Assembly: GCA_000739515.1 (NCBI GenBank) | Contig: DF820457.1 | Location: 349,804-413,803 of the forward strand | Direction of reading: 5' to 3' | DNA: 64,000 nucleotides | DNA from: Candidatus Moduliflexus flocculans | Lineage (GTDB): Bacteria; Moduliflexota; Moduliflexia; Moduliflexales; Moduliflexaceae | Part shown: positions 3,133 to 64,000 of the stretch, piece by piece | Position numbering within the stretch: position 1 is the first letter of the stretch | Layout: the number at the start of each line of letters is the position of its first letter | Made by a program: the position numbers and the translations under genes | The notes under the pieces: model-generated | What the model was told of the DNA's origin: nothing | Databases searched by the model: none | Seen by the model: only the letters and a program-made list of their open reading frames with translations

Positions 3133-3199
3133 TAATATCAATATGCAGACTTTACCGGTCTTGAAGACCTGCGAGGTCTCGCGAGAGAGGACTTATCTT

Positions 3200-4186
3200 A
3201 TGAAACTACGGCTGAATCAACGTAATATTCCGATTTTGGCGACGTTTGCCGTGTTCGTGCTGATTTATATTGTCGGCTCGATCATGTATCGGAATTTCTT
3301 TTCATTGCGCGTCCTCGTCAACCTGTTGATTGATAACGCCTTTGTCGGCGTCATCGCGGTAGGCATGACGTTTGTGATTATTTCCGGCGGGATTGACCTG
3401 TCAGTCGGCTCGCTCGTCGCGTTTACCGGCGTGTTGACCGCGAAATTAGTCTCTGTTTATCATGTGCATCCATTGATTGTGATTGCGCTGGCTCTGGCAA
3501 TTGGCGCAGCTTTGGGCTTTACGATGGGGAATCTGATCCATCATTTCTCTCTTCCGCCGTTTTTGGTGACGCTGGTGGGAATGTTTTTAATGCGCGGGTT
3601 GTCGTTCCAATTATCCTTAAGCTCAATTGCCATTCAAAAGAATCCGTTTCTGTTCAGCTTGACCTCCATCGGCATTCCGCTCGCCAAGCGCCTCAAGCTT
3701 CCGCTTGGCACGGCGATTGTCTTTCTTATCGTGGTGGCGATTGGCATTTATGTGTCGCATTTCACAAAATTTGGACGAAACGTCTATGCCATTGGCGGCA
3801 ATGAACAATCCGCCATTTTGATGGGCTTGCCGGTAGGAAAAACCAAAATCATGATTTACACGCTGAATAGCACGTTGTGCGCGCTGGCAGGCGTTGTCTA
3901 TACGCTCTACACGCTGTCGGGCTATCCGCTTGCCTGCGTGGGGCTGGAATTAGACGTGATTGCGGCGGTCGTCATCGGCGGCACGCTGCTCACCGGCGGC
4001 GCTGGCTATATTGAAGGCACGCTGCTCGGCGTCCTGATTTTAGGCCTGATTCAGACCTTTATCACCTTCCAGGGCACGCTCAGTTCCTGGTGGACGAAAA
4101 TCGTGATTGGGATTCTCCTGTTTGTGTTTATCCTGCTGCAAACCTATATCACGAAAACATCGAGCCTCTCTGCGCGAAAAGCATAA
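3200..4186 (+). CDS. yjfF: Sugar ABC transporter permease
   Basis: ISGGIDLSVGS, GRNVYAIGGNE and ELDVIAAVVIGG motifs; start moved to ATG 3200 after GAGG. Confidence 0.85.
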   Translation: MKLRLNQRNIPILATFAVFVLIYIVGSIMYRNFFSLRVLVNLLIDNAFVGVIAVGMTFVIISGGIDLSVGSLVAFTGVLTAKLVSVYHVHPLIVIALALAIGAALGFTMGNLIHHFSLPPFLVTLVGMFLMRGLSFQLSLSSIAIQKNPFLFSLTSIGIPLAKRLKLPLGTAIVFLIVVAIGIYVSHFTKFGRNVYAIGGNEQSAILMGLPVGKTKIMIYTLNSTLCALAGVVYTLYTLSGYPLACVGLELDVIAAVVIGGTLLTGGAGYIEGTLLGVLILGLIQTFITFQGTLSSWWTKIVIGILLFVFILLQTYITKTSSLSARKA

Positions 4187-49279: not shown

Positions 49280-51529
49280 TCACATCCATATCGTAATCGG
49301 GTTCATCTCGGATTCACTGATTGGCTTCGGAATCCATCCTAATTTCACCGGCACGTCATATAAGCGCCCCGGCGCAAATCGCGCTCGAATGTGGCGAAGA
49401 CCTGGCACAATCACCTTAACCACGCTCATTCCGATGTCCGGTCGCGTGACATCATTCACAAGAAATTCTGCCCCTAAATTGCGCGTAATCTCAAAACAGC
49501 GTTCAAGATCATCCAGAATATCCTCGCGATACCATTCGGAGTAAGATGAACGGGTTTTCGCGGGAACGGATCGATCCGGAGCAAGATACGGCAGATGTTC
49601 AAGTCGTCCAGTGCGATTCCAATCCTTCATAAATTGCTCGCGTTCCGACCGCGCTCGTTCCGCCATGCGCCCGCTTTCCATCAGATATAAGGATTGATTC
49701 ATTTCCGTCAGCGCCCTGCTGAGCGCAATTCTGACATCAAAATGCGTGCCATACCCAAAGGTCAGCATTTCGTCTTCGCGTCCCACGGTGCGAGAGATCG
49801 CTGCGTATGTCGGAATCGTTGAATCTGTCGTCAAATCCAGCACCCAGAGTTCCCTGCTGAGTGCGGCGTAATATTCACGCAAGGCGTCGAAATACGAATC
49901 GTGAAAACTGTCTAAATCCACCGCCGGGCGCTGTAAGCGGTTATACCACCAGATTGACACGGAATCCCGCTCGACGACCTCGAAAAATGCCTGCAAAATC
50001 GCCTCTTCAAGCACATTTCCAGCCGCAAAGCCATTCGATTCGACGCTATAAAACAAATCGCCGCCATCAGCAGGATCAGTGTAGCGCAAATAACAATACG
50101 CCGTCGGCACATATTTGACAGTCTGCGCTGTGCACGACCAGACTGGCGTCCAATCAATCGGCGTTTCTGGATCAAGGCGGATCGGGACATGTTCAAGCGA
50201 GAGATGCGACCGATTCCATTCCTCGCGGCAGCGATATTGCTCCTCGCTGAACAACATGCAGCGCTCAATCGGGATAAAACGCTCATCAGCCTGGCTATAT
50301 GGCATGCGGATGCGAAATTCATGGCCTTGATAGATCGCCGAATACCGCTCGACCGCTTCGCTGAAGGCGCTGGCGCGCGATTGCAGGTCGCTTCGCCCTT
50401 TGCCGGTGCTGTTGTTGCGCAACGCCCGCTGCAATTCGGCATAATTCCTGTTTACCAGAGATAGGCGATGAATCCCGGCATACATGGTGATTAATCCGTT
50501 CGCATCCGTGAACATCTGCCGCAATTCCGTGACAATGCCAGTAATCGGGCTGATCAAATGTCCGTAGCGCTTGAAGGTTTCTGTAGGAGAACAAATGCGA
50601 TGTCCGCCATCTTCGGTAAAAAATTTTTTTCTGGATTGCAATTGCAGAGGACGAGGCTCTTCATCGTGTGGCATTCCGCAGATAGGGCATTGCGGACGCT
50701 TTGAGAGGATATGCTTATCAGTCTGCAAGGTCGCGGCATCAAGTGTGATGATCGTTCCTTTCAGCGGAGAATGCGCGATATCCGCCAGACACAGCGCGAC
50801 CTGCGTTGCCGCTAACGCGCAGCCGGTTTGAAGCGTGCTCGGCAGCATCGCCCGCGACACCGGGAACGGCGCGGAACGTTCAATTTGATATTGCAGGGAA
50901 CTTTCGACTTTGCGATGTTCCGCCAACCGGTGAGCCAGACAATACCAGCAGCCCGTTTCGCCCGGAATAAAGAGCGGGCCAATCCATAACACCGCGCCGA
51001 CTGGCTTGACAAGCAGCCAGGGAGACCCCGCCTGCAACCGTTCCTGATTAAATTCGCGCAGCCCGTCTTGCAAGTAATCGTCAACGAGCGCAACAGCAAG
51101 CTCGCCAGCGTGATCGGGCTGAATTCCTAACGCGCTGAGTTGAGCCGCGAACGGCTCAGCCTGAACTTCCCCAAACGTATGCAATGCGACCCGTGCAGGC
51201 GTCTTTTGCCAGTTCGCCTGGTTGGGATCAATGCCATGCAGATGCCAAAATGCCGCCGTCGCATCCGCAGGCGCGTCTGCCGCATCCACAAGGTACCCCT
51301 GCGTTTCCAGACGCTCTAACGCATAACGGATGCTCGCTTCAGAGACAAACGCCTTCAGTTTCTCCTCAATGTCGTTGACAGCGTGCGTTCCGTCTAAAAA
51401 CGGGGCAATGGCTCGATACAAAAGTCCGCGCAAGGCATAATGCCTTTTTTCGCTCAACAAATAGACGACATCTTCGTCAGGAGCAACTTCGACATGGAAA
51501 TGCGGTTTAAATTTGGGCTTTTCAAGCAT
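49280..51529 (-). CDS. Fused RRE/E1-like + YcaO cyclodehydratase (TOMM C-D fusion)
   Basis: N-terminal RRE-like segment; IGPLFIPGETGCWYCL, KRPQCPICG, GKGRSDLQSRASAFSEAVERY, SNGFAAGN, EVVERD, RALTEMNQ, VKVIVPGLRH; ends MNPITIWM. Confidence 0.92.
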   Translation of the reverse strand: MLEKPKFKPHFHVEVAPDEDVVYLLSEKRHYALRGLLYRAIAPFLDGTHAVNDIEEKLKAFVSEASIRYALERLETQGYLVDAADAPADATAAFWHLHGIDPNQANWQKTPARVALHTFGEVQAEPFAAQLSALGIQPDHAGELAVALVDDYLQDGLREFNQERLQAGSPWLLVKPVGAVLWIGPLFIPGETGCWYCLAHRLAEHRKVESSLQYQIERSAPFPVSRAMLPSTLQTGCALAATQVALCLADIAHSPLKGTIITLDAATLQTDKHILSKRPQCPICGMPHDEEPRPLQLQSRKKFFTEDGGHRICSPTETFKRYGHLISPITGIVTELRQMFTDANGLITMYAGIHRLSLVNRNYAELQRALRNNSTGKGRSDLQSRASAFSEAVERYSAIYQGHEFRIRMPYSQADERFIPIERCMLFSEEQYRCREEWNRSHLSLEHVPIRLDPETPIDWTPVWSCTAQTVKYVPTAYCYLRYTDPADGGDLFYSVESNGFAAGNVLEEAILQAFFEVVERDSVSIWWYNRLQRPAVDLDSFHDSYFDALREYYAALSRELWVLDLTTDSTIPTYAAISRTVGREDEMLTFGYGTHFDVRIALSRALTEMNQSLYLMESGRMAERARSEREQFMKDWNRTGRLEHLPYLAPDRSVPAKTRSSYSEWYREDILDDLERCFEITRNLGAEFLVNDVTRPDIGMSVVKVIVPGLRHIRARFAPGRLYDVPVKLGWIPKPISESEMNPITIWM

Positions 51530-51588
51530 ATTCAGATTCTTTCCCGCTGAGATTCATATCCAGTATTATGCGTTACGATTGAGCAAAG

Positions 51589-51757
51589 GTAACTATTTAG
51601 CCCGTAGGGCTTGAGGTATTGTAGAAGAGCATTCCAGGAAACCTCTCTACCGCGTAGCGGTTGTGGACGCCGTATCGCCTACGGCGAATGGGGGCGTGTT
51701 GTGCATGTCCATTCTACAAGACCCTATCGCCTACGGCGAAAATAGCTAAATAGTTAC
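51589..51757. mobile_element. 169-bp MITE with 13-bp perfect terminal inverted repeats and an 8-bp target-site duplication
   Basis: GTAACTATTTAGC (51589-51601) and GCTAAATAGTTAC (51745-51757); GAGCAAAG at 51581-51588 and 51758-51765. Confidence 0.85.
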
Positions 51758-51799
51758 GAGCAAAGTTGTCAGACACCTTCAACGTGTCTGACAACTATT

Positions 51800-53170
51800 T
51801 TACGGGTTGTTGTCTTCCTCTGGCGCGTCGAGAAATTCCTGCACGCTCTGCATGATGTCGCCGGAATGATAAAACTCAAGAATTTTGCGATAAATGGACT
51901 CTTGAAATTCCAGACTTCCGGCATGGGTATGGAGTTTCTGCTGGTCGAACCAGCGTTTTTGAGGCAAGCGCACTAATTTGCGGCATAATGAATCCACGAC
52001 GGGATCGTTGAACGAGTATCGCAAAATCTGCAAGCGTTCTTTATCCGATTTAATCATGCCTCTGGTTTGCATTTCATGCCAGATTCCCGTATTTCGCAAT
52101 CCGACAAGATAGAGCGAAATGACGCTCTGCGAACATTGATATTGGCCGATAAATTTGACATTTTCGACAAAATCCTCTAACGTCATGTCGTAATGCGAAA
52201 ATAAGATCATATAGGCCAAAATTTTAACATCAGGAGCATATCGCTCGCGCAGCCGCATCATGGTCGTGAGCGCCTGCGCGTTTTTTTCCGGCGTCGTCCG
52301 GCGTCCGAGCAAATTCAGCAGATGCTGAGTATTCCCTTCAACACCCATTTCAATGGCGCACGGACGAATAATCTCGCTGCGAAAGAGATATTCCATTACT
52401 GCGGCATTCCGCAGGAAATCTTCTGGCCGCCCGACGATGGAGATGTGTACCGGCAGCTTTCGCGTTTCCAGTTCGCTGAATAATTCCTGGAGCAATTGCC
52501 CGTTCGCCGCAGCATTGGCATTTCCAAGATGAAAGGTGTCATATCCCTCGCGATACCAGGCTTCAATTTCGTCTGCGGCCTTCTTCGCGCTTTTAAAGCG
52601 CATGGTCGCCACGTCCTGGCAATAGTAGCAGCGCCCGTAGCAGCCGCGCGTTAATTCGATAAACACGATGCCCTGAACCACGACCAGCGTATTCGGGCGA
52701 GGTAATTCATCCAAATCCACGAATTCTGTCGGCGGGCGGACGATAATGCCGCGCTGAGAATCCCGGTACGCAATGCCGTCAATCGCATCAAATAATTCGG
52801 GCTGCTTGAAGGAGCGCAGCAGATTCAGCAGGCGTTTTTCCCCTTCTCGCAAAATCACGTAATCAACGTTGGGGTTCTCCCGCAGCATCATTTCCGGATC
52901 GGAGGTCGCCGCCCAGCCGCCCCAGATAATCGTTTTCTGCGAAAGGCGCTGCGTCAGTTCTTGCGCGGTCGCATACACATAATTCAGCACCGAAAACCCA
53001 AACACATCCGCTTGATCAATATAGTGATCAAGCTCGGAACTTGAAATGATTATGCTGTTGATGCCGTGCTGTTTCAAATACGGATCGAGAACCGCCAATC
53101 CGCTGTTGTTTGGCATCCAACTGTCAATATTCACGAAAATAATATCCGCTTTTTCTTGTGGCGCACACAT
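51800..53170 (-). CDS. Cobalamin-dependent radical SAM enzyme (class B methyltransferase-like)
   Basis: B12-binding-like N-terminus (GLAVL..YLKQHG, WGGWAAT, REGE); ELTRGCYGRCYYC. Confidence 0.82.
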   Translation of the reverse strand: MCAPQEKADIIFVNIDSWMPNNSGLAVLDPYLKQHGINSIIISSSELDHYIDQADVFGFSVLNYVYATAQELTQRLSQKTIIWGGWAATSDPEMMLRENPNVDYVILREGEKRLLNLLRSFKQPELFDAIDGIAYRDSQRGIIVRPPTEFVDLDELPRPNTLVVVQGIVFIELTRGCYGRCYYCQDVATMRFKSAKKAADEIEAWYREGYDTFHLGNANAAANGQLLQELFSELETRKLPVHISIVGRPEDFLRNAAVMEYLFRSEIIRPCAIEMGVEGNTQHLLNLLGRRTTPEKNAQALTTMMRLRERYAPDVKILAYMILFSHYDMTLEDFVENVKFIGQYQCSQSVISLYLVGLRNTGIWHEMQTRGMIKSDKERLQILRYSFNDPVVDSLCRKLVRLPQKRWFDQQKLHTHAGSLEFQESIYRKILEFYHSGDIMQSVQEFLDAPEEDNNP

Positions 53171-53212
53171 CGCTCTTTCCTTTTTGAAATTCCATTGCGG
53201 TTAGTTATGCCA

Positions 53213-54112
53213 TTACGCCAGGCCATGTTCGTTCAGTAGTTCCGGCAAATACGTCACTGTCAGCGGGAATTGCTCCTGAAGGTTGTTCAGCACCCGATTT
53301 TCAATCCACTGCCAATGTTCTGACGGCGTGTATCCACTGAAACGAGATCGGCAGATGTCAATCAGCGCGGGGCGAATATGCTGCTCCCGCACCCAGGCGG
53401 TCAGTTGGTCAATGCGCCGCTCGACTTCTGCTACCTCAAATTTGGGAGTTTCTGGAATCGGCCCCATTTGATACAGGTAATAATAACCGTCATCGCGCTC
53501 TTCTGCTCGCACAAAACCTCCGCAAATGCGAATCCGGTGATACGGATGGTCGTGAAATGCGCGATATTCGCGTTCTGTCACTTGCACTTCAAAGGTTTCG
53601 CCGGTTTGATAATCGCAGAAAAAGTAATCTAAATCAATGTCCAGAATCACAGTTTGAGAGGCCGAAATCGTTCGGTCTGGCGTGATATGATAGAGATTGG
53701 CGACTTTCCGGTCGGGATTCAGCAGCCCGGCCTGAAAGAGGTTTTCCGTGACAAAAAGGCGGCGGCCTTCGCCTTGCGCCGAAAACATATTTAACATCCG
53801 ATCTTTCCGCAAGCGATGATGTTCCCGCCGCATCCAGTAAATATCGCTGAACAGCCCTTGATAGACGGCGGGGAGAATAAAATCGCCGATGCCAAGATTG
53901 GTTCGCGTAAACAGCAGCGTGTCGCGCAAGTCCGTCCCGATCTCTTTCAGCGAACTTTTCAGCAGCGGAAGGTTCAGGTCGTCATGATCATCCACATGGA
54001 GCAGCGTGTTGCGGGTTGCTGGGATTAGCTGGTTCATAACCGCGTACCGCCAGATGAAAAAGGCTTCGTAATGCTCTTCCATAATAAAAGTCGGTATCAT
54101 ACTGTCCCCCAT
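53213..54112 (-). CDS. UPF0489-family peptide arginase (OspR-like, Arg to Orn)
   Basis: IPTFIMEEHYEAFFIW, LLHVDDHDD, ILDIDLDYFFC, CRSRFSGYTP; embedded in the RiPP operon. Confidence 0.72.
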   Translation of the reverse strand: MGDSMIPTFIMEEHYEAFFIWRYAVMNQLIPATRNTLLHVDDHDDLNLPLLKSSLKEIGTDLRDTLLFTRTNLGIGDFILPAVYQGLFSDIYWMRREHHRLRKDRMLNMFSAQGEGRRLFVTENLFQAGLLNPDRKVANLYHITPDRTISASQTVILDIDLDYFFCDYQTGETFEVQVTEREYRAFHDHPYHRIRICGGFVRAEERDDGYYYLYQMGPIPETPKFEVAEVERRIDQLTAWVREQHIRPALIDICRSRFSGYTPSEHWQWIENRVLNNLQEQFPLTVTYLPELLNEHGLA

Positions 54113-54130
54113 TTTTCCCTCGAGAAATTT

Positions 54131-55510
54131 TTAGTTCAGGCTCTCTTCCGGCGAATCGAGAAACCGCATAATGCGAGCGTGAATGTTTTCAGCCGCAGAA
54201 AATTCTACGATTTTCTCGTAAATCTGACTTTGGATGCGCTTATAACCCCAATAGATCGCGTGTTTCCCGGCGACTTGCCGAACGCTAAGCAAGGCGTGAA
54301 AATAGGAAGAAAATTTTTGGAAGAGCCGGTTAACGGTTTCATCCGTGAACGCATATTCCTGAATTTGCAAACCTTTATTGGAATTGGTAAGAAATCCTCT
54401 GGCGCGCATATCTTTCCAGACAGGCGTCATTGCCACGCCGTACAGGTTCATCGCCATCACATCTTTTGTGCAGCCATATTCTCCGATAAAACGAATGTTG
54501 GCGATTAATTCTTCCATAGTCATATCGTAGTGCGAAAACAAGATCATGTTCGCCAGAATTCGAGTGGTGGGGGAATATTTCTGCTGCAATTCTCTCAGGG
54601 CGGTGATCGCCTGATGATTGGTTGCAGGACTTCCTCTTCGCCCTAATAAATCGAGGAGGCGCTGCGTGTTGGCTTCAATACCGACTTCAATCGTGATGAG
54701 ACGCTGAGTCGGGTTTTTGAAAATGCGTTCAAGCGTGTCATAATTTCGCAGCACATCTTCCGGGCGACCAACTAAGCAGAATTCTATCGGCAAGCCGCGC
54801 GATTCCAACTCATCCATCAATGACCGTAGCAACGGACCATTCGCTAAAGAATTGGCGTTGCCAAGATAGAATTTCTTGAAGCCTTTCTGATGCCACGCCT
54901 GAATTTCATCAACGACTTTTATGGCATTTTTAAAGCGCATGTGGGAATTTTCCTGACAATAGCCGCATCTGCCGTAGCATCCCCGCGCCACCTCGACAAA
55001 CACGAGGTTATCCTGAACAGCCATCTCATTCGGCAGCGGCAGGTTATTCATATCCACAAACCCCTCTGGCGGGCGAACGCAAATTGTGTTCTGACCGTCT
55101 CGATACGCGATGCCATCAAGCGCGTCAAAGAGTTCTGGCTGTTTCAGCGAGCGCAGCAGGGTGACGAGTCGGCGCTCTCCTTCTTGCAGCACCACGTAAT
55201 CTACGCCCGGATTTTCTGTCAGAATATACTCTGGAAGCGCCGTTGCCGTCCAGCCGCCCCAAATGACTGTTTTATCCTGCAAGTGTTTTGTCAGGGTTTG
55301 CGCAATGCGATAGGTGTGATCCATGACGGAAATTCCGAATACATCCGCCTGATCAAGGTATTGGTTGATTTGAGAACTGTTGACGATCTGGCTTCTGAAG
55401 CCTGCCTGTTTCAACACCGGATCAAGAATCGCCAACGCGTTATTCATGGGAAACCAGTCGTCAATATGAATGAGAATAATATCCAATTTTCGATCAGTAT
55501 CGCGCATCAT
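54131..55510 (-). CDS. Cobalamin-dependent radical SAM enzyme, paralog of 51800-53170
   Basis: WGGWTATALP, QEGE, EVARGCYGRCGYC; start ATG 55510 after TAAGGTG. Confidence 0.82.
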   Translation of the reverse strand: MMRDTDRKLDIILIHIDDWFPMNNALAILDPVLKQAGFRSQIVNSSQINQYLDQADVFGISVMDHTYRIAQTLTKHLQDKTVIWGGWTATALPEYILTENPGVDYVVLQEGERRLVTLLRSLKQPELFDALDGIAYRDGQNTICVRPPEGFVDMNNLPLPNEMAVQDNLVFVEVARGCYGRCGYCQENSHMRFKNAIKVVDEIQAWHQKGFKKFYLGNANSLANGPLLRSLMDELESRGLPIEFCLVGRPEDVLRNYDTLERIFKNPTQRLITIEVGIEANTQRLLDLLGRRGSPATNHQAITALRELQQKYSPTTRILANMILFSHYDMTMEELIANIRFIGEYGCTKDVMAMNLYGVAMTPVWKDMRARGFLTNSNKGLQIQEYAFTDETVNRLFQKFSSYFHALLSVRQVAGKHAIYWGYKRIQSQIYEKIVEFSAAENIHARIMRFLDSPEESLN

Positions 55511-55512
55511 AA

Positions 55513-57852
55513 TCACCTTATATACGGCGGAAGCGCAAAACGCGCGATATATTCCGCATGGGTTTTGCACTGGTAGCGTGGATGGCAGGCAGCTCGCGCA
55601 GTGGTTTTGGGAAATGCATTCGCGGCGACTCCAAGCGCTGAGGTGGTCAACGCGGATAAAATCATCAACGATTTATCCTCATAATACGAAATGGCATGAT
55701 ACGTCTTGCCGACTGCCGCCACGCGCTCTCCATTCAATGCTTTGAGGTGAAGCAATGCGTGAAATGAGGATGGATCGTCTTCAAGCAGATCGCTTGAATA
55801 AAATGGAATTGGCGCGTCAGGCGTCGGATGCCTGTCAAGCTCATCTGCTATCCAGCACTGCGCCTGCGCGATTCTGTCGCTGTTAGCGCCAAGCGCGGCG
55901 AGCGTCAAAATCGCCAGCGCGGTGGAAAGCATTTGATCAAACTCGCCGAAAGCCCCGTCGTTTTGCTGACTGGCGCAGATTTCCTGCATGAGTTTGTTTC
56001 GCAGTTCATCCGCCTGATCGTCATGGCAGAGAGCCAGAGCGAGCGCCCAATCCGCCAAATACGGATTGGCGAAATACAATCCGCTCCGCTGCTCGAATCC
56101 ATCTGCAAGATACGTCAGCGATGTGCTGGGCGGCAAGCCGTGCCGCATCCTGTGCCAGCGCACGAGGCAAGTCGTGGCATAATCGGCCTGACACCAATGG
56201 CGGACATTCGGAGTGAACAGCATGAAATCAGGGCGTTGCTCCTGCGACCAGAGTTGCGGGTAATAGCCGTTCTGACCATCATGAAACCTCTCAAGCGCTT
56301 CAACCGCCTTCATGTCGTTCAGCCCGAGCAAAATCAGGGAAGAATCGGTGGCTGTGATGACATGGCCGGTATGAAACGCCCATAAATCTCCCTGCTTGCG
56401 TGTGGTAAGCAACTCTTCCAGAGACGAAAGCACGGCGGCAAGCTCGCCGTTTTGCTCGACAATCTGCCGCAATGCATATAAGAGAAAACCTAACGGCACA
56501 AGGTCGCCGTATGGAAACGGCTTTTGCGGCGCAGGCGGAATGCACATCATTGGAATCGGCTGTTGACAAGCTTTTTGCGCCAATGTCAACAGGCGCTGGA
56601 AATATTGTTTTGGCGGCGATGACAATTCAGTGCTGCGGCTCGTATCCTGAAGAAAGCGCCTGACATGCTGCGCAGTTTCCTGGCCGGATTTCACCGCAGC
56701 GTCCATGCCATAGGGAAACTCGCGATAGAGATAATCACCGGCAAGATAAATACCTGGCGCGGCGCACAAGACATCCGCGTTCCATGTCGCGTAACTTTCG
56801 GGCGTGATGATTGTTCCGCCGCATTCCCAGCGATGCGTTTCCGCAAAAAGCTGTTCAGCCCCGGCGATATTCAGCCCGACGCGCTCCATAGCGCATTTCG
56901 TCCGCGTGATCAGCTCATCATCCGGCAATTGCCGGGTTTCCTGCGACGCCCGATTGCAATAATAGACGAGAAGGACCGTTATCCGGCTTCCTGGAAACGT
57001 CATTTTGTAGATTGTGGTCATCGGTAGTTCTGGCGTCACAACGTAGGAAAATTCCTGATCGCAGATAATATCCTTATATCCGAGCGCGACGACTGTGAAT
57101 CGGCCATAACGAATGGAATGGAGAAACTGTCGGCATGGCTCGCGCATGTCTGAAAGCAGGGCGAGCGCAACCGGCGCGGGAGTCGCCACAATCACGGCGC
57201 GAGCGTATGTCTCATGGCGTGTTCCCTGCTGCGTGAATAAGACGCACATGCCGCGTTCTGTGCTCGTAATGGACTCAACCGCTGCCTCGTATTCGACGTG
57301 CGCCTGAATTCTCTGGCAATAAGCGTCAATCAGCCCATAATTTCCATCGGGATAATGTTGCGGATGATAACGCAAAAATGCGTGAGAGTGAAATGCGGGG
57401 AGATATTCTTCGATGTCGCCGGGATGAATGACCTGAAAGAACGCATTCAGCAGGTCGCGATGCTGCTGAGGCAGCCGGGCGGGGCTGAGTTTCCCATTTC
57501 CTGCGGCAAGCATGTTCGCGAACGCCGCTGATTCCGGCGGAACGATTGCGCTCAGGCATTCGGCGACCGATTCGCCGCGATAAAGCGCTCCGTCCCAAAA
57601 TACGCCAATAGGCGCAAGTTCTTCGAATGCTAACGGCGGCGAAAAATCGCGTGGAGCGCATTCGAGATCGTAGGACAACACTGCCCCGACATCATAACAA
57701 TGCGCTCCGAATTTCTGCGTGCGGATTCTCCCGCCGGGAATGGCCTCTTGTTCTAAGATCAGCGTGTTGCGATCTCGCAAATGATACGCAGCCGATAAGC
57801 CTGCCAACCCAGCGCCAATGATGATTGTCTCGAATGTTATTCCACTAACCAT
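55513..57852 (-). CDS. FAD-dependent amine-oxidase-type oxidoreductase fused to a squalene-cyclase/prenyltransferase-like alpha-alpha domain
   Basis: IIGAGLAGLSAA, GGRIRT, LAGDY..GMDAAVKSG in the first ~400 aa; helical C-terminal part with QW-like motif SQQNDGAFG. Confidence 0.7.
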   Translation of the reverse strand: MVSGITFETIIIGAGLAGLSAAYHLRDRNTLILEQEAIPGGRIRTQKFGAHCYDVGAVLSYDLECAPRDFSPPLAFEELAPIGVFWDGALYRGESVAECLSAIVPPESAAFANMLAAGNGKLSPARLPQQHRDLLNAFFQVIHPGDIEEYLPAFHSHAFLRYHPQHYPDGNYGLIDAYCQRIQAHVEYEAAVESITSTERGMCVLFTQQGTRHETYARAVIVATPAPVALALLSDMREPCRQFLHSIRYGRFTVVALGYKDIICDQEFSYVVTPELPMTTIYKMTFPGSRITVLLVYYCNRASQETRQLPDDELITRTKCAMERVGLNIAGAEQLFAETHRWECGGTIITPESYATWNADVLCAAPGIYLAGDYLYREFPYGMDAAVKSGQETAQHVRRFLQDTSRSTELSSPPKQYFQRLLTLAQKACQQPIPMMCIPPAPQKPFPYGDLVPLGFLLYALRQIVEQNGELAAVLSSLEELLTTRKQGDLWAFHTGHVITATDSSLILLGLNDMKAVEALERFHDGQNGYYPQLWSQEQRPDFMLFTPNVRHWCQADYATTCLVRWHRMRHGLPPSTSLTYLADGFEQRSGLYFANPYLADWALALALCHDDQADELRNKLMQEICASQQNDGAFGEFDQMLSTALAILTLAALGANSDRIAQAQCWIADELDRHPTPDAPIPFYSSDLLEDDPSSFHALLHLKALNGERVAAVGKTYHAISYYEDKSLMILSALTTSALGVAANAFPKTTARAACHPRYQCKTHAEYIARFALPPYIR

Positions 57853-58943
57853 GCGCCTCCCGCATTTTTCGAAAAGATGGCATTCGCGTTTAACCCCGGA
57901 TGGCTTAACGCTAAATACGCTTTGGCTTCTTTCGCCTGTCCGGACGTAATACTCAGCTTGATGTGATGAATTTTACGCAAAAGGAATTGATAGGCAATAC
58001 CTTCGGCGGGGCGCGGCCAATCTTTCGGAAAGTGCGTCATGCCTTGAAAATCCAGGATTCCCTGATATTTTGACGGAAGGCAGAGATGCATCGCCGCAGT
58101 TGCGTCGAGGAGCGGTATCCACTGTTTGGGATCATTTTCCAGCCAATTCATATAACATTCCACGCCGATTTTTTCCGCCGGTCCGTCCGGCATCAAATTG
58201 ATGTTCATCGCAAACGATTCCAGCCCTTGCGGCAACTGCCGCAAAATATCCGCGATGTTTTCCGGGTTTCCTTGCCAGCCAACCGCGCGAAGCCAGACAG
58301 GAATTTCCTCTGCCGTCAGCGGATACACGCACACTCGCAAGCCCGGGTTGGGTCTGGAAAGCATAATTCCAATTTGAAAGATGCGCGCCTCGCCGGGAAG
58401 TTCCTTGATCAGTGCATTTAGCGCGTCTTCATGATATATTGGATTTTCTAAGGCGCTTAATGCCTCGCAAATCAGGTGGGCATCCTGTTCTTTTTGGAGC
58501 GTTTTGGCATTCGGGCCGAAAAAAATGCACGGGCGGCTCAAAATCTCATCAGCCTGCGACGGGTCATCTATTGCGGCGGTGTCGAATTCTAACCAGAGAT
58601 TTCGAATGTGCGTGGAAAATGCATGATGCGGGTTTGCCCACAACGTTGCAAATCTGCGCAGATTCTTCCAGGCAGGCCATTGCGCGCATAAGGCATCTAA
58701 GGTTGAGGGCATCTCCCCGGCGAGGATATTCCGCCCCTGAGATTGACGTTTGATTTCAAAAAGAATATCCATTTTTGCGCTCGCTTCGCCGAGGCGGCAT
58801 TCAAAGCCCCAGAACGTCGCTAACTCAAACGGCAAACGCTCTGCCGCGAGCGCTAACAACGCATACCCTTCCGCGTCAACCAGGCTGTCAGGGAGCGAAG
58901 CTTTCGCCAATTCCAGCACAGAGAGCAGATTGGTCGTGATCAC
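57837..58943 (-). CDS. Putative ABBA-fold aromatic (Trp) prenyltransferase
   Basis: FECRLG, WLEFD, QIGIMLSR, KIGVECY, HHIKL..AKAYL: repeating beta-strand pattern with Arg/Lys/Tyr residues; GTG start overlaps the epimerase stop; fold assignment is inference. Confidence 0.55.
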   Translation of the reverse strand: MITTNLLSVLELAKASLPDSLVDAEGYALLALAAERLPFELATFWGFECRLGEASAKMDILFEIKRQSQGRNILAGEMPSTLDALCAQWPAWKNLRRFATLWANPHHAFSTHIRNLWLEFDTAAIDDPSQADEILSRPCIFFGPNAKTLQKEQDAHLICEALSALENPIYHEDALNALIKELPGEARIFQIGIMLSRPNPGLRVCVYPLTAEEIPVWLRAVGWQGNPENIADILRQLPQGLESFAMNINLMPDGPAEKIGVECYMNWLENDPKQWIPLLDATAAMHLCLPSKYQGILDFQGMTHFPKDWPRPAEGIAYQFLLRKIHHIKLSITSGQAKEAKAYLALSHPGLNANAIFSKNAGGAWLVE

Positions 58944-60436
58944 TGATACACCTCATCCAGCAGCCCATGATCGAATAAACTTTTTACCATCGCGACAACA
59001 GTGATCAAATTGAATTGGTTTGCGACCATTTCCTCTGTGAGCTCTTTATACGTGAATGCCTGTCTGGAAATTGCGTCGCCTAAGAACCGATGCGGCGCTT
59101 TTCCGCGAAAATGATGCACCTGATTCGGCGAGACTAAATCAAATCCCTCGTCTGTCGGGCGATAACGTAAATCGTCGCGGAAGCGCATCGGCATGTCGGC
59201 GCGTGGGGATTCCGGCATATTTCGGTCAATCAAGGATTCGATGGCCTTGCGGAAATCGGCGGCGTCAGTGAAGGAGGCGTTATCAAACACGCGATAACCG
59301 TAGGGCCATTTCGAACTGGAATAGCAGGGGCTGATCAATTGAATCGTCCGCGTGACGAAACTGACCATAAAACCGGACATGCACTCAATTGTCCCTTGCG
59401 GCACGACGCCGTTAAGATATTCTCCGTCCTCCTTGCCGCGCAAGCCGTCTTCCTCTTTCAACACGCGTCCGCTGGACACTTTCGGGCGCACATGCTCTTT
59501 CATCTGCATCAGCAAGTCCACGTCCAGCAGTTCTTCTGGGGAATATAATTCATGAATTTTGAACAGCGCCGCCTTTGAGAGAACGCTGATTCGTAAGGAG
59601 GCGGGAAACTTTCTTTCTTTGTAAAATGCGATCAATTGCCGCAGCCATGGCGCGTCCGTGCCGACTGCGGTGGAGGTAAATGGCGCAGCCCCGCAGATGT
59701 CGGTATAATCCCGCAGAAATTCAAAATAATGCGGATTATCATGCGGCTCTGTGCCGCAGTAGAGCATGGTTCTGCCGGTCTGCTCCGCGCCAAAAATATC
59801 TACGCACGCCTCAACAATAGAACGAAAAAACTCCTTGTGAATCGCATAATCGAGGTTATCGGTCAACTTCCGCGCCGCGAACGCGCAAAACCAACACCCC
59901 ACGCTGCATCCGTCGCTCAATTCAAATGATAGCACCGGATGGCTAATGTGATAGCCATAAATGCCTAATTCGCTGCGCGCGGAATGAACGCGGCGCTTGC
60001 GCCAGGCATCGAACGCGGGATTCGTTTCCACCGGCAGAACGCGATTCCGCAGCATGGCGTAGAGTTCCTCTTTCAGGGTGAGAAACCGCGCCCATAAATG
60101 GAATAAGGGATAGGCTGCGATGTCTTCAAGAATATTGGCAGGTAGTTCCTGCGTTTTCTTTGTGCGCACCGCTCTCATGAATTGCTGAACGCTCTCCGGC
60201 GATTTCCAGAGAATCGCGAGTTCATCGGGAGCGAAAGAAATGCCGATGCGCCGCAAGCGCTCACGCGCCTCCGGTCGGAACGTTCCTGCGTCAACCTCTC
60301 GGCAAAACTCGGGATCGCCTTCTGTCCATTCAAAGAACCGCTTGATCTGGGCTATCGTGGCGAGTTCTTGCTCGGAAAACGTCCCGAATAATTCTACGAC
60401 GTTGTGGCATGAATTCGAGGGTTGAGGATTCAGCAT
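58940..60436 (-). CDS. Radical SAM RiPP amino-acid epimerase (PoyD/OspD family)
   Basis: HPVLSFELSDGCSVGCWFCAF, TEPHDNPHY, GTIECMSGF, SPCYSSSKWPYGYR. Confidence 0.88.
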   Translation of the reverse strand: MLNPQPSNSCHNVVELFGTFSEQELATIAQIKRFFEWTEGDPEFCREVDAGTFRPEARERLRRIGISFAPDELAILWKSPESVQQFMRAVRTKKTQELPANILEDIAAYPLFHLWARFLTLKEELYAMLRNRVLPVETNPAFDAWRKRRVHSARSELGIYGYHISHPVLSFELSDGCSVGCWFCAFAARKLTDNLDYAIHKEFFRSIVEACVDIFGAEQTGRTMLYCGTEPHDNPHYFEFLRDYTDICGAAPFTSTAVGTDAPWLRQLIAFYKERKFPASLRISVLSKAALFKIHELYSPEELLDVDLLMQMKEHVRPKVSSGRVLKEEDGLRGKEDGEYLNGVVPQGTIECMSGFMVSFVTRTIQLISPCYSSSKWPYGYRVFDNASFTDAADFRKAIESLIDRNMPESPRADMPMRFRDDLRYRPTDEGFDLVSPNQVHHFRGKAPHRFLGDAISRQAFTYKELTEEMVANQFNLITVVAMVKSLFDHGLLDEVYQ

Positions 60437-61995
60437 TCACTCGTCGAACTGACGCCTGAGTGAGCATTGACCTCATTCAAGAATCCGTTATCAAATAAAT
60501 TTTTCAGCGCCACCACAACAATCATCGGGTTGCAGCCATGCTGTTTCGTCATAATGTCATACAACTCGTCATAGCTGTGCGTGCCTTCAGCGAGCAAGTT
60601 TCCTAACGGCTTGTGCAATGCGGCGTTGCGAAAATGGTGAATCTGATTCGGCGAGGCGAGTTCAAATCCGGATTCTGTCGGACGATAGATGAAATCATCG
60701 CGAAATTGCATCAACATGTCTTTGGGCGGATTTTCAGGCATATTCCGATCAATCAGCGCTTGCATCACGCGATGAAAATCTTCTGCGTCAGCAAAGGTGG
60801 CCTCATCGAAGACGCGATAGCCATAAGGCCATTTTTGCGAGGTATAACACGGGCTGACGATCTGGATTGTTCGCCTGACCATGTTGATTAAAAAGCCAGA
60901 GACACAGGCAATTGAGCCTTGAGGCACGATCTCGTCAAGATAATGCCCCTGTTCGCGTTCGCGCAATCCGGCCTCTTCTTTCAAAATGCGTCCGCCCGAC
61001 ACTTTTTGGCGCGGGCCGTGCTTAATTTGCATCAAAAGTTCGACGTCCCGAAGCTCTTCTGGCGAATAAAGATCGTGAATTTGATGCAGCATGGCTTTGG
61101 ACAGGACGCTCAACCTCGGCCAGGGAGAATTCGATTGCCGATAGAACGCGATCAGTTCGCGCATCCAGACCGGATCGGTTGGCACTGCTGTTGATGTGCA
61201 TACCGGAAATCCGGTAATTTCGGTATAATCTTTAACAAAGTCCAGATAATGCGGATTATCGTGCGGCTCCGTGCCATAATAGAGCAATGCCAGACTCGTT
61301 TCATATCTGCCGAACAGATCGACGCAGGCATACGTCACTTGCCGGAAAAAGTCGCGATGTTCTGTATAATCGAAATTTTGCGTCAATTTGTGTGTGGCAA
61401 ACGCGCAGAACCAACAGCCAACGCTGCATCCATCCCCCAATTCGAAGGCTAAAATCGGATGATCGAGCATATAACTGAAATAGCCTAATTCGCTTTTGGT
61501 CGCGGCAATTCGACGGAGACGCCAGGCGTCGAATTTGGGATTGGCCGGGATGCGAATCACTTTTTCCGCAATATTGCCCATATAGTTCCTGAATAAGCGA
61601 TTTTTGGCCGAAAGATACCGCCCCCATAAAACGAATAATGGATACTCCGCAATTTTCTGCATTATCTCTTCTGGTAAGGCTTCTTCATGACGTGCCTGAC
61701 AATTCAGGACAAAACGCTGCGCGGCTTCGGGATATTTCCAGAGGATGGCGACTTCATCGAGATTGAAGGTTATGCCGATGCGCTGCAAACGCTCCACTGT
61801 GGCGGGAGACATATTGCCGGAAGTCAATTGTTTTTCGAAGGCCGGATCGCCCTGCGCCCATTCAAACAGCCGTTTTAATTGGACGATCAAGGACATTTCG
61901 TCTGCTGAAAATTGGCGCAACAGTCTTGCATGAAAATCTTCGCAATTTTCAGTACTTTCAGGGATATTTGATGCTGCCTGTTGATGATTGCTCAT
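60430..61995 (-). CDS. Radical SAM RiPP amino-acid epimerase (PoyD/OspD family), second copy
   Basis: HPILAFELGDGCSVGCWFCAF, TEPHDNPHY, GSIACVSGF, SPCYTSQKWPYGYR. Confidence 0.88.
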   Translation of the reverse strand: MSNHQQAASNIPESTENCEDFHARLLRQFSADEMSLIVQLKRLFEWAQGDPAFEKQLTSGNMSPATVERLQRIGITFNLDEVAILWKYPEAAQRFVLNCQARHEEALPEEIMQKIAEYPLFVLWGRYLSAKNRLFRNYMGNIAEKVIRIPANPKFDAWRLRRIAATKSELGYFSYMLDHPILAFELGDGCSVGCWFCAFATHKLTQNFDYTEHRDFFRQVTYACVDLFGRYETSLALLYYGTEPHDNPHYLDFVKDYTEITGFPVCTSTAVPTDPVWMRELIAFYRQSNSPWPRLSVLSKAMLHQIHDLYSPEELRDVELLMQIKHGPRQKVSGGRILKEEAGLREREQGHYLDEIVPQGSIACVSGFLINMVRRTIQIVSPCYTSQKWPYGYRVFDEATFADAEDFHRVMQALIDRNMPENPPKDMLMQFRDDFIYRPTESGFELASPNQIHHFRNAALHKPLGNLLAEGTHSYDELYDIMTKQHGCNPMIVVVALKNLFDNGFLNEVNAHSGVSSTSEC

Positions 61996-62186: not shown

Positions 62187-62503
62187 TTACCAGGCTCTAC
62201 CCAGGACAGCGCCGCTGACGACGACGGAGCCACCGACGGCGCCGACAGCACCAGCAATAGCCATTGTCACAGTGACGACTCCACCAGCCACCTGCTCTAA
62301 TTCCTCGTCACTCAATTCATTCGTCGGCCTGATTTCGTCGGCCAACGCTTGAATATCGCGTTATCGAATTCAAGGCCAAGTTCGTTTTTACTATACGCGA
62401 TCCAGCCATCAACATTTTCGATGCCGATCGCTTTGACTCGTTCTCTGATTTTTTCATCTTCCGCACAGAGTTGCCCAAATTTTTTGAAATTTTCTACGCT
62501 CAT
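62187..62503 (-). pseudogene. Nif11-like RiPP precursor D with a 1-bp deletion; restored core VVTVTMAIAGAVGAVGGSVVVSGAVLGRAW
   Basis: GATAACGC at ~62361 versus GATAAACGC in precursor C; 317 nt, and adding one A restores a 75-aa leader plus 30-aa core ending in TAA at 62187-62189. Confidence 0.85.
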
Positions 62504-62561: not shown

Positions 62562-62927
62562 TTACCAGCCTCTACCGACGGCAACGCCAACGAGGCTGCC
62601 GGCGGCGGCACCAGCGACGCCGCCGCCGACGATGCCGACGACGCCTGCGGCGACGATGGCGCCGCCGACGGCGCCAACAATAGCCATTGTCGCAGTGACG
62701 ACTCCGCCCGCCACCTGCTCTAATTCCTCGTCACTCAATTCATCCGTCGGCCTGATTTCGTCGGCCAACGCTTGAATATCGCGTTTATCGAATTCCAGGC
62801 CAAGTTCGTTCTTACTATACGCGATCCAGCCATCAACATTTTCGATGCCGATCTCTTTGACTTTTTCTCTCACGTTAACATCTTCAGCGCAAATCTGCCC
62901 GAATTTTTTAAAATTTTCTACGCTCAT
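62562..62927 (-). CDS. Nif11-like RiPP precursor C; core VVTATMAIVGAVGGAIVAAGVVGIVGGGVAGAAAGSLVGVAVGRGW
   Basis: 75-aa leader MSVENFKKF...ELSDEELEQVAGG (double-Gly site) plus 46-aa core. Confidence 0.92.
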   Translation of the reverse strand: MSVENFKKFGQICAEDVNVREKVKEIGIENVDGWIAYSKNELGLEFDKRDIQALADEIRPTDELSDEELEQVAGGVVTATMAIVGAVGGAIVAAGVVGIVGGGVAGAAAGSLVGVAVGRGW

Positions 62928-63053: not shown

Positions 63054-63413
63054 TTACCATCTTCTGATAGCTCTCACAACTGCAATCGCGGCGCCAGCAA
63101 CAGCCCCCAAGGCTGCGGCTCCACCGGCAGCAGCTCCGGCAAGAGCAATCATCCCGGCAACAGCGGCGCCGGCGGTTGCCGTGATGAAGCCTCCGGCCAC
63201 CTGCTCCAATTGCTCTTCGCTCAATTCATTCTCTGGGCTGACTTCAGCGGCCAAGGTCTCGATGTCCTCTTTACTGAATTCCAGGCCGAGTTCATCCTTG
63301 CTATAGGCGATCCAACTGTCAATATTTTCGATGCCGATCTCTTTGACTTTTTCTCGGATTGCGGGATCTTCTGCACAAAGCTGTCCGAATTTTTTGAAAT
63401 TCTCAACGCTCAT
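63054..63413 (-). CDS. Nif11-like RiPP precursor B; core FITATAGAAVAGMIALAGAAAGGAAALGAVAGAAIAVVRAIRRW
   Basis: 75-aa leader ending ELSEEQLEQVAGG plus 44-aa core; AAAGGA RBS. Confidence 0.92.
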   Translation of the reverse strand: MSVENFKKFGQLCAEDPAIREKVKEIGIENIDSWIAYSKDELGLEFSKEDIETLAAEVSPENELSEEQLEQVAGGFITATAGAAVAGMIALAGAAAGGAAALGAVAGAAIAVVRAIRRW

Positions 63414-63586: not shown

Positions 63587-63925
63587 TTACCATCTCTTAA
63601 TGGCAGAACCAACCGACGCGACAACTCTGGCAGCGCCAGCGGCGATTGACACTCCACCAGCAATTACTCTGATGACGGAGGCAGCGGTTGACGTGACGAA
63701 TCCGCCAGCGACTTGTTCTAATTGTTCTTCGCTCAATTCATCGACCGGCCCAACTTCGTTGGCCAGAGTCTGCATGTCTTCTTTCGTGAATTCTAAGCCG
63801 AGTTCGTCCTTGCTATAGGCAATCCAGCCATCAATGTTTTCCACGCCGATTGCTTTGACTTTTTCTCGGATTGTGGGGTCTTCTGCGCAAAGCTGTCCGA
63901 ATTTTTTGAAATTCTCAACGCTCAT
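63587..63925 (-). CDS. Nif11-like RiPP precursor A; core FVTSTAASVIRVIAGGVSIAAGAARVVASVGSAIKRW
   Basis: 75-aa leader ending ELSEEQLEQVAGG plus 37-aa core; AAAGGAG RBS. Confidence 0.92.
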   Translation of the reverse strand: MSVENFKKFGQLCAEDPTIREKVKAIGVENIDGWIAYSKDELGLEFTKEDMQTLANEVGPVDELSEEQLEQVAGGFVTSTAASVIRVIAGGVSIAAGAARVVASVGSAIKRW

Positions 63926-64000
63926 ATCACTCGCTCCTTTCTCTACTTCATTGGCCTCAATGGTGTTCGATGCCCAACATTCCATGTGAGCCACACAACG

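What the first reader, a model, noticed from the sequence alone, without database searches (positions are those of the whole stretch)
49280..51529. YcaO cyclodehydratase with Cys-free substrates, no azoline dehydrogenase and an atypical C-terminus
Seen: none of the four cores contains Cys, and core B has only Thr3 and Thr5 as hydroxyl residues. No McbC/SagB-type FMN dehydrogenase is in the window. The C-terminus is NPITIWM rather than a Pro-rich PxPxP-like tail. Inference: the products would be methyloxazolines at Thr3/Thr5 left unoxidised, or the enzyme does non-azoline YcaO chemistry (amidine, or azoline-assisted cleavage near the leader site).
Basis: partly seen in the sequence, partly recalled or inferred. 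Interest (0 to 1): 0.6.

Follow-up and report, generated by a model that had tools for sequence, protein, structure and literature searches.

The report
Thr-only PatD-type YcaO cyclodehydratase
This gene encodes an intact relative of the cyanobactin ring-forming enzymes, placed at the end of a large ribosomal-peptide gene cluster; it most likely turns two conserved threonine/serine residues at the start of each peptide into oxazoline rings that stay unoxidised, which is an unusual substrate set for an otherwise ordinary enzyme.

Summary
ORF 49280-51529 (-) is an intact 749-aa enzyme with three fused parts: a wHTH/RRE domain, an E1-like domain and a YcaO domain. It is of the PatD/LynD/TruD/MusD type (E about 1e-190 to the solved structures).

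It is the only YcaO in this 7.1-Mb genome of a small candidate phylum; relatives are named KSB3. The only Nif11 precursors in the genome are the array next to it. There are eight, not four: four lie beyond base 64000, and one in the window is frameshifted. All eight cores lack Cys. No SagB/McbC/ThcOx-type oxidase lies in or near the cluster.

Across 58 related cores, position 3 is Ser/Thr in 90% and position 5 is Thr in 86%, against a 10% background. A distant sister cluster (L090) keeps the motif, the YcaO, the epimerases and the B12-rSAM genes, also with no oxidase.

The tail NPITIWM is real but not very atypical. About half of PatD-type representatives lack the second Pro, including relatives with adjacent oxidases and the characterised MusD.

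Best reading: leader-directed (methyl)oxazoline formation at core residues 3 and 5, left unoxidised. This is a new variant of a known kind.

The parts
49280..51529 (-). Fused RRE / E1-like / YcaO cyclodehydratase, 749 aa, PatD/LynD/TruD/MusD type. It is the only YcaO gene in the genome.
51287..51511 (-). N-terminal winged helix-turn-helix (residues 7-81), the presumed leader-binding RRE domain.
   Evidence: PF21084, 62.1 bits against a cut-off of 24.1.
50531..51022 (-). E1-like 'TOMM precursor leader peptide-binding' domain (residues 170-333). It contains four invariant Cys (C194, C197, C281, C284).
   Evidence: TIGR03882, 168.2 bits; invariant columns in the alignment.
49394..50404 (-). YcaO ATP/Mg2+ domain (residues 376-712). 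The conserved acidic motifs are intact: S387/E391/E394/R395 and E508/E509/Q513/E517/E520/R521.
   Evidence: PF02624, 316 bits; invariant columns; no clade-specific change at these positions.
49283..49303 (-). C-terminal tail NPITIWM (residues 743-749). It has the family's length, Asn-Pro and penultimate aromatic residue; the second Pro is replaced by Thr.
51530..51799 (-). Spacer of 270 nt between the B12-rSAM gene and the YcaO gene. It consists of repeat elements found across the genome: a 13-bp hairpin directly after the rSAM stop codon (about 51765-51795) and an element of about 150 nt with inverted ends.
   Evidence: RNA fold z-score -5.3; 484 blastn hits in the genome; 16-mer direct repeat.
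63587..63925 (-). Nif11-leader precursor A. The core is Cys-free, starts xxTST and ends KRW.
63054..63413 (-). Nif11-leader precursor B. Thr3 and Thr5 are the only hydroxyl residues in its core.
62562..62927 (-). Nif11-leader precursor C.
62187..62503 (-). Precursor D. The leader is frameshifted; the core is intact and Cys-free.
58940..61995 (-). Two PoyD-family radical SAM peptide epimerases (context for the YcaO).
   Evidence: TIGR04517, 377 and 384.5 bits against a cut-off of 325.
57837..58943 (-). 368-aa protein with no Pfam match. Earlier notes call it an ABBA prenyltransferase. Its homologues lie next to PatD-type YcaO genes in other phyla.
55513..57852 (-). 779-aa flavin amine-oxidase-type domain fused to a C-terminal domain. 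The C-terminal domain has a 47%-identical homologue in the Pleurocapsa locus L020.
51800..55570 (-). B12-rSAM gene, peptide arginase gene (FlmR/OhkR family model, 256 bits, below its strict cut-off of 350) and a second B12-rSAM gene.

Best explanation
The gene encodes a working, leader-directed, ATP-dependent cyclodehydratase of the PatD family.

Proposed mechanism:
1. Its N-terminal RRE/E1-like part binds the Nif11 leader, probably the conserved acidic stretch just before the Gly-Gly site.
2. Its YcaO domain phosphorylates the backbone amide preceding core residue 3 (Thr/Ser) and the one preceding residue 5 (Thr).
3. The side-chain hydroxyl attacks, giving (methyl)oxazolines.
4. Where residue 4 is also Ser/Thr, a third ring is possible.
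5. With no cognate FMN oxidase, the rings stay at the oxazoline level, as the oxazolines of patellamides do.

The product would be an oxazoline-bearing N-terminus on a long Gly/Ala/Val peptide. The neighbouring enzymes would epimerise and C-methylate that peptide, convert Arg to Orn, and modify the terminal Trp.

Shown here: family membership, intact motifs, substrate-motif conservation and absence of an oxidase. Inferred: the sites, the number of rings and their persistence.
For: - **Family.** E-values are 2.5e-196 to MusD, 3.6e-194 to LynD and 3.7e-190 to TruD over the full length. TIGR03604 and TIGR03882 score above cut-off.
- **Integrity.** Of 186 columns that are at least 90% conserved in outgroup homologues, 134 are kept in at least 90% of this clade. 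None of the 8 clade-specific departures lies in the acidic ATP/Mg motifs. Close relatives of 77-93% identity are all full length.
- **Only possible substrates.** The genome has one YcaO, and its 7 intact Nif11 leader matches are all in this array.
- **Motif.** In 58 distinct related cores, position 3 is S/T in 90% and position 5 is T in 86%, against 10% S/T elsewhere. No core has Cys at position 3 or 5, and 50 of 58 match xx[ST]xT.
- **Sister cluster.** L090 carries a YcaO of 45% identity in the same clade (support 1.0) with a Cys-free core that starts xxSxT. It also has three PoyD-like genes, two B12-rSAM genes and no oxidase.
- **Same position in Cys-bearing relatives.** In cyanobacterial relatives L020 and L023, the heterocyclisable residues (xCTP) sit in the same place right after Gly-Gly, beside a ThcOx oxidase.
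- **Chemistry.** YcaO is the only enzyme family seen inside the window whose known chemistry needs a beta-hydroxyl or thiol; a sulfotransferase-like gene just beyond it is the one other possible claimant (see evidence against).
- **From established knowledge, not tested here.** PatD and MusD process Thr/Ser. The i, i+2 spacing is the pattern found in patellamide cores.
Against: - No biochemical data exist for this enzyme or its clade.
- A sulfotransferase-like gene is conserved in both clusters (51% identity) and could claim some of the same hydroxyls.
- Thr3/Thr5 conservation could serve recognition by the epimerases or B12-rSAM enzymes, which are also shared with L090.
- MusD, the best solved match, also hydrolyses peptide bonds.
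- A 270-nt repeat-filled spacer with a strong hairpin separates the gene from the operon, so co-transcription is not shown.
Confidence: 0.55

Rival explanations
1. MusD-like or other non-azoline amide activation. The YcaO phosphorylates a backbone amide, and water, or an amine such as the ornithine made by the arginase, attacks. The result would be ATP-dependent cleavage, for instance after the xxTxT segment as a way of removing the leader, or an amidine.
For: - MusD is the top solved match, and its tail lacks the same Pro at the same position.
- MusD is reported to hydrolyse a C-terminal dipeptide through ATP-dependent activation (PMC10885120).
- No protease gene lies between the YcaO and the precursors.
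Against: - The leaders keep a canonical Gly-Gly site.
- The genome has a C39-peptidase ABC exporter, and L090 carries one inside its cluster.
- Both clusters also hold a DUF7005 protein with an HExxH motif that could do any trimming.
- L090 has the YcaO but no arginase, so ornithine cannot be the general nucleophile.
- MusD is about as similar to this protein as the plain heterocyclases LynD and TruD are.
Confidence: 0.12
2. Oxazolines are made and then oxidised to oxazoles by a non-canonical oxidase. Candidates are the flavin domain of the 779-aa fusion protein or one of the unlinked nitroreductases.
For: - A flavoprotein gene sits in the cluster.
- The Pleurocapsa relative L020 has a ThcOx oxidase.
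- The genome has 18 PF00881 matches.
Against: - The flavin domain's best family matches act on isoprenoids and porphyrinogens (HpnE, CrtI/CrtD, protoporphyrinogen oxidase).
- It is fused to a domain that earlier notes read as a terpene cyclase, so an isoprenoid substrate is simpler.
- L090 has neither a flavoprotein nor an oxidase.
- The two nitroreductases I examined sit among housekeeping genes.
Confidence: 0.1
3. The conserved hydroxyls belong mainly to another enzyme. Candidates are O-sulfation by the conserved sulfotransferase-like protein, or use as a recognition handle by the epimerases or methyltransferases. The YcaO would then act on other, variable Ser/Thr residues, or make only one ring.
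For: - The sulfotransferase-like protein is 51% identical between this cluster and L090.
- The protein atlas places it with sulfotransferases, with a feature score of 0.98 and TM 0.82-0.88.
- Position 4 is also Ser/Thr in 59% of cores, so three hydroxyls are on offer.
Against: - Core B has no hydroxyl other than Thr3 and Thr5, so the YcaO would have no substrate there.
- The Pfam sulfotransferase match is below cut-off (E 4e-4).
- Its acceptor is unknown.
Confidence: 0.1
4. The YcaO is a passenger or relic that no longer acts on these peptides.
For: - It is the last gene of the cluster.
- Inserted repeat elements with a terminator-like hairpin set it apart from the operon.
- The other eight genomes searched in the phylum lack the cluster.
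Against: - The frame is full length and the catalytic and Zn-site residues are intact.
- Full-length orthologues of 77-93% identity exist.
- Two of them appear to share a contig with related precursors, judged by equal contig lengths of 87,978 and 242,896.
- The same gene set is conserved in L090.
Confidence: 0.05

Closest known systems
Cyanobactin heterocyclases PatD, LynD (PDB 4V1T) and TruD (4BS9)
   Same: - The same three-domain fused architecture.
- About 45-50% identity across the solved relatives over the full length.
- Cys4 site, ATP/Mg motifs and tail length are conserved.
- Leader-directed action on residues a few positions after an acidic leader motif.
- Ser/Thr oxazolines can persist in the products, as in patellamides (established knowledge).
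   Different: - There are no PatA/PatG proteases, no macrocyclisation and no PatE-type cassettes.
- The precursor has a Nif11 leader with a Gly-Gly site and a core of 30-46 residues.
- The substrates lack Cys altogether.
- The tail has one Pro instead of two or three.
- The enzyme belongs to a separate, well-supported clade.
MusD, the muscoride heterocyclase/peptidase (PDB 7U58)
   Same: - It is the best solved match (E 2.5e-196).
- It is a Thr-processing enzyme (established knowledge).
- Its tail likewise has Ser/Thr in place of the second Pro.
   Different: - MusD works with an oxidase to give methyloxazoles.
- It has a reported ATP-dependent peptidase activity, which is untested here.
- Its substrate is a short linear cyanobactin core.
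Carnazolamide (dehydrazole) and nostatin A pathways: proteusin-type RiPPs that include a YcaO (carnazolamide also a radical SAM epimerase)
   Same: A YcaO cyclodehydratase sits within a proteusin-type pathway. In carnazolamide it occurs together with a radical SAM epimerase (PMC10676384). Nostatin A is a second example (PMC11583998).
   Different: Carnazolamide has an NHLP leader, a Cys-rich core and a dedicated dehydrogenase, and its products are azoles. Nostatin A is likewise an azole-containing NHLP peptide. This cluster has a Nif11 leader, no Cys and no dehydrogenase.
Polytheonamide, aeronamide and landornamide pathways
   Same: PoyD-type epimerases, B12-rSAM enzymes and a peptide arginase act on long hydrophobic cores (PMC10028609, PMC12703449).
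   Different: None of those pathways contains a YcaO. Their N-terminal cap arises from Thr dehydration, not cyclodehydration (established knowledge).

Membership tests
Azoline-forming fused E1-like/YcaO cyclodehydratases (PatD type; TIGR03604 + TIGR03882) | YcaO domain with the ATP/Mg2+-binding acidic motifs | tested here: met
   - PF02624 scores 316 bits.
- TIGR03604 scores 263.9 against a cut-off of 219.25.
- S387/E391/E394/R395 and E508/E509/Q513/E517/E520/R521 are invariant in the clade alignment.
- These positions are not among the clade-specific departures.
Azoline-forming fused E1-like/YcaO cyclodehydratases (PatD type; TIGR03604 + TIGR03882) | Fused N-terminal leader-binding part (wHTH RRE plus E1-like domain) with a Cys4 site | tested here: met
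   - PF21084 scores 62 bits.
- TIGR03882 scores 168 bits against a cut-off of 36.9.
- C194, C197, C281 and C284 are invariant.
Azoline-forming fused E1-like/YcaO cyclodehydratases (PatD type; TIGR03604 + TIGR03882) | Pro-rich C-terminal tail (PxPxP) | tested here: not met
   - The tail is NPITIWM, with one Pro.
- The same holds for 70 of 150 family representatives.
- It holds for 21 of 22 members of this enzyme's clade.
- It holds for the characterised MusD and for relatives that have adjacent oxidases.
- Tail length, Asn-Pro and the penultimate aromatic residue are kept.
- For the PatD type, therefore, the strict motif does not define membership.
Azoline-forming fused E1-like/YcaO cyclodehydratases (PatD type; TIGR03604 + TIGR03882) | Leader-bearing substrate with Cys/Ser/Thr in the core | tested here: met
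   Eight adjacent Nif11 precursors start xx[ST]xT, and the motif is kept in 50 of 58 related cores.
Azoline-forming fused E1-like/YcaO cyclodehydratases (PatD type; TIGR03604 + TIGR03882) | ATP-dependent loss of water (-18 Da) from the substrate | not testable with these tools
   This needs an enzyme assay and mass spectrometry.
Thiazole/oxazole-modified microcin systems in the strict sense (cyclodehydratase plus FMN dehydrogenase) | Cognate SagB/McbC/ThcOx-type dehydrogenase | tested here: not met
   - No PF00881 or TIGR03605 match lies within 300 kb on the contig.
- The two candidates I inspected are housekeeping-like.
- There is none in the 19 kb beyond the window.
Cyanobactin pathway | PatA/PatG-type proteases and a PatE-type precursor with recognition sequences flanking the core | tested here: not met
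   - Pfam and NCBIfam scans of every cluster ORF show no subtilisin-type protease.
- The precursors are of the Nif11 type (TIGR03798).
Thioamide-forming YcaO systems | TfuA partner | tested here: not met
   PF07812 has no match in the genome, which is 93.9% complete.
MusD-like YcaO peptidases | ATP-dependent hydrolysis of a peptide bond next to the azol(in)es | not testable with these tools
   I know of no sequence signature for this activity. The only evidence is overall similarity and a similar tail.

The most novel reading that the evidence does not exclude
This rare clade is seen almost only in metagenomes and is represented by two or three clusters at 50% identity. It may have been recruited as a Ser/Thr-only enzyme with one of two roles. 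It might build an unoxidised oxazoline cap on epimerised, C-methylated, Trp-lipidated helical peptides. Or, like MusD, it might use ATP to cut the peptide after the oxazoline segment, providing a protease-free leader-release step. The conserved sulfotransferase-like and HExxH (DUF7005) partners might act on the same N-terminal segment.
Probability: 0.15. Interest if true: 0.7.

Novelty: new variant of a known kind. Interest (0 to 1): 0.42.

Why it matters
PatD-type heterocyclases are widely used tools and are well understood on Cys-containing cyanobactin cores. Here one is dedicated to Thr/Ser, with no oxidase, inside a pathway that also epimerises, C-methylates, makes ornithine and modifies a terminal Trp. 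That would extend the known combinations of peptide modifications. It would also offer an oxazoline-selective enzyme with a Gly-Gly/Nif11 leader logic.

The work also corrects two assumptions. The PxPxP tail is not a reliable hallmark within the PatD type. Absence of an oxidase next to such genes is common: 22 of 76 loci with adequate flanks lacked one.

Tried and rejected
I therefore could not read the contexts of the closest homologues (P0002-P0015, P0034/35/49, P0107). Co-occurrence with precursors rests only on equal contig lengths.
- **Scans of genome contigs and metagenome contigs** returned no homologue above 50% identity. The other eight genomes searched in the phylum lack the cluster.
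- **A search with the L090 precursor** found only itself and one weak hit.
- **A PDB search with a precursor** did not retrieve PatE. It gave only a Nif11 domain and non-significant compositional matches to alpha-synuclein. The similarity of the leader's acidic stretch to the cyanobactin heterocyclase recognition sequence therefore rests on my recall only.
- **Rejected: the Pro-poor tail marks non-azoline chemistry or loss of the oxidase**.
- **Rejected: a nitroreductase near the only C39 exporter is a trans-acting azoline oxidase.** It is ferredoxin-fused and sits among creatininase and carbamoyltransferase genes.
- **Literature.** Paper searches found no description of a Nif11 / PoyD / YcaO cluster without an oxidase.
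- **Not run.** I did not predict the structure, because sequence identity to three solved homologues already fixes the fold and the tool returns no coordinates.
Full report
**1. The gene**

The minus-strand ORF 49280-51529 translates to 749 residues without a stop and ends in NPITIWM.
- Pfam finds a full YcaO domain (residues 376-712, 316 bits) and an N-terminal winged helix (residues 7-81).
- NCBIfam places it above the curated cut-offs of TIGR03604 (SagD-type cyclodehydratase) and TIGR03882 (leader-binding E1-like domain).
- Against solved structures it matches MusD, LynD and TruD over the whole length, with E-values of 1e-190 to 1e-196.

It is therefore a fused PatD-type heterocyclase. Homologues of 77-93% identity have the same length and start, so the gene model is sound.

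**2. The organism and the cluster**

The window is G000:C6:349804-413803 of a 7.1-Mb assembly. Its phylum holds only nine genomes in the collection searched. Close homologues of the YcaO and of the precursors are named 'Candidatus Vecturithrix' and 'candidate division KSB3' by their sources.

All of the following genes lie on the minus strand upstream of the YcaO:
- a B12-rSAM gene;
- a peptide arginase gene;
- a second B12-rSAM gene;
- a 779-aa flavoprotein fusion;
- a 368-aa protein with no Pfam match;
- two PoyD-family epimerase genes;
- Nif11-leader precursors.

Earlier notes of this scan read the 368-aa protein as an ABBA prenyltransferase and the C-terminus of the fusion as a terpene cyclase aimed at the terminal Trp. 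I did not re-test that.

The genes below 49280 are housekeeping.

**3. Beyond the window**

Reading 20 kb further (L001) shows four more precursors, so there are eight in all. Next comes an AmpH-like membrane protein with a beta-lactamase fold.

On the opposite strand lie two further genes:
- a 251-aa sulfotransferase-like protein;
- a 384-aa DUF7005 protein with an HExxH motif.

Both have homologues in the sister cluster L090, at 51% and 28% identity, and the HExxH motif is kept there. They probably belong to the pathway.

No dehydrogenase and no Cys-containing precursor appears in this stretch.

**4. Substrates**
- The genome has a single YcaO gene.
- It has seven intact Nif11 leader matches, all in this array. 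The frameshifted precursor D makes the eighth.
- None of the eight cores contains Cys. All start xx[TS]xT and end in a basic residue, one more residue, then Trp.
- A search with precursor A recovered 56 related proteins from metagenomes.
- Over 58 distinct cores, position 3 is Ser/Thr in 90% and position 5 is Thr in 86%. Position 4 is Ser/Thr in 59%, against 10% in the rest of the core.
- Fifty cores match xx[ST]xT and 54 end in Trp.
- Eleven cores carry a Cys, never at position 3 or 5.

These sequences are related to one another, so the counts show conservation, not independent events.

**5. Oxidase and partners**
- PF00881 has 18 matches in the genome. None lies in the window, and the nearest on the contig is more than 300 kb away.
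- The one hit above cut-off to the SagB model is a lone 251-aa nitroreductase beside an arginyl-tRNA-protein transferase gene on another contig.
- The nitroreductase near the only C39 exporter is ferredoxin-fused and sits among metabolic genes.
- TfuA is absent.

**6. Relatives and the tail**

A tree of 146 homologues puts this protein in a clade of 22 with support 1.0. In that clade, 21 of 22 lack the second Pro of the family's tail, against 16 of 124 outside it.

The clade contains the YcaO of metagenome locus L090. That locus holds:
- a Nif11 precursor with a Cys-free core starting xxSxT;
- three PoyD-like genes;
- two compact B12-rSAM genes;
- the sulfotransferase-like and DUF7005 genes;
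- its own HlyD and C39 exporter;
- no oxidase.

The tail nevertheless says little about function, for three reasons.
- Among 150 representatives clustered at 50% identity, 70 keep only Asn-Pro and 64 have the second Pro.
- Among 76 loci with adequate flanks, 47 tails lacking the canonical second Pro sit next to a ThcOx-like oxidase. One of these tails is almost identical to this one.
- MusD, which makes azolines, has Ser at that position.

Tail length, Asn-Pro and the penultimate aromatic residue are conserved throughout.

Eight other positions differ between the clade and the outgroup: 243, 398, 420, 421, 518, 692, 694 and 715. None lies in the acidic ATP/Mg motifs.

**7. Comparison with Cys-bearing relatives**

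In every other fetched locus where I could find a Gly-Gly-type precursor, the core contains Cys. These are L020, L022, L023, L025, L028, L033, L047 and L104.

Two cyanobacterial loci, L020 and L023, have cores that start xCTP directly after Gly-Gly and end in Lys-Trp, beside a ThcOx oxidase. L020 also holds homologues of the 368-aa protein and of the fusion's C-terminal domain.

The heterocyclisable residues therefore sit in the same N-terminal place as Thr3/Thr5 here. This supports those residues as the YcaO's targets.

**8. Interpretation**

The best-supported mechanism is ordinary PatD-type cyclodehydration of Thr/Ser at core positions 3 and 5, with the oxazolines left unoxidised.

What is unusual is the setting:
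- the substrates lack Cys;
- there is no oxidase;
- the enzyme works alongside epimerases, B12-rSAM enzymes, an arginase and Trp-modifying enzymes;
- the host belongs to a candidate phylum.

Published pathways that combine a YcaO with a radical SAM epimerase use NHLP leaders, Cys-rich cores and a dehydrogenase (PMC10676384; PMC11583998). I found no description of this arrangement.

The main uncertainties are these:
- whether the conserved sulfotransferase-like protein shares the hydroxyls;
- whether a MusD-like hydrolysis occurs (PMC10885120);
- whether the gene is co-transcribed across the 270-nt spacer. That spacer is made of genome-wide repeats and folds strongly (z -5.3, 484 genomic hits).

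**9. Verdict**

The tail argument is weak. This is a new variant of a known enzyme kind, of moderate interest.

Noticed in passing
L001 854-2762 (equivalent to window positions 64054-65962, outside the window): Four further Nif11 precursors, all Cys-free, all starting xx[TS]xT and all ending in Trp. The array therefore has eight members.
   Followed up: yes
L001 4730-5485 (+) and 5492-6646 (+): A sulfotransferase-like 251-aa protein and a DUF7005 protein with an HExxH motif. Both are conserved in the sister cluster L090 (51% and 28% identity) and are probably part of the pathway. The DUF7005 protein looks like an uncharacterised zinc peptidase.
   Followed up: partly
L001 2921-4330 (-): A 469-aa AmpH-like / class C beta-lactamase-fold protein with an N-terminal membrane segment, directly after the last precursor. 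It might be a peptidase acting on D-residues, or an immunity protein.
   Followed up: no
window 51530-51799: The spacer between the B12-rSAM gene and the YcaO gene is built from repeat elements found hundreds of times in the genome: a palindromic hairpin and an element of about 150 nt with inverted ends. It folds far better than shuffled sequence.
   Followed up: partly
L020 (Pleurocapsa MAG) and L023 (Nostocales HT-58-2): Nif11 precursors whose cores start xCTP and end Lys-Trp, beside a PatD-type YcaO and a ThcOx oxidase. L020 also has LanM and homologues of the window's 368-aa protein and of the fusion's C-terminal domain. These look like a Cys-bearing, oxidised cousin of this pathway.
   Followed up: partly
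L037, L038, L046, L050, L053, L067, L088: MAGs of Gammaproteobacteria, some named after sponge symbionts, carry weak homologues (22-27% identity) of the 368-aa protein within about 10 kb of PatD-type YcaO genes (immediately adjacent in L037 and L050). No oxidase lies nearby, and the tails are of the type NPVPVIA.
   Followed up: no
L166 (G008, same family) 528-3207: Two Nif11 precursors with Gly/Ala-rich cores ending in Phe sit next to a small stand-alone 418-aa YcaO. This is a different YcaO system in a related genome.
   Followed up: no
L164 4086-10786 (G000:C6, about 812-819 kb): The genome's only C39-peptidase ABC exporter, with HlyD and a second ABC protein, lies about 400 kb from the cluster. 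It is the likely trans-acting Gly-Gly leader protease and exporter.
   Followed up: partly
L151 (G005, same genus): A genome of the same genus has a 40%-identical PatD-type YcaO with an adjacent ThcOx-like oxidase on a short contig. This is a conventional pair.
   Followed up: no
window 63587-63925: The end of the leader plus the core gives non-significant (E 0.2-2) compositional matches to the amyloid-forming NAC region of alpha-synuclein. This fits a strongly beta-prone Gly/Ala/Val core.
   Followed up: no
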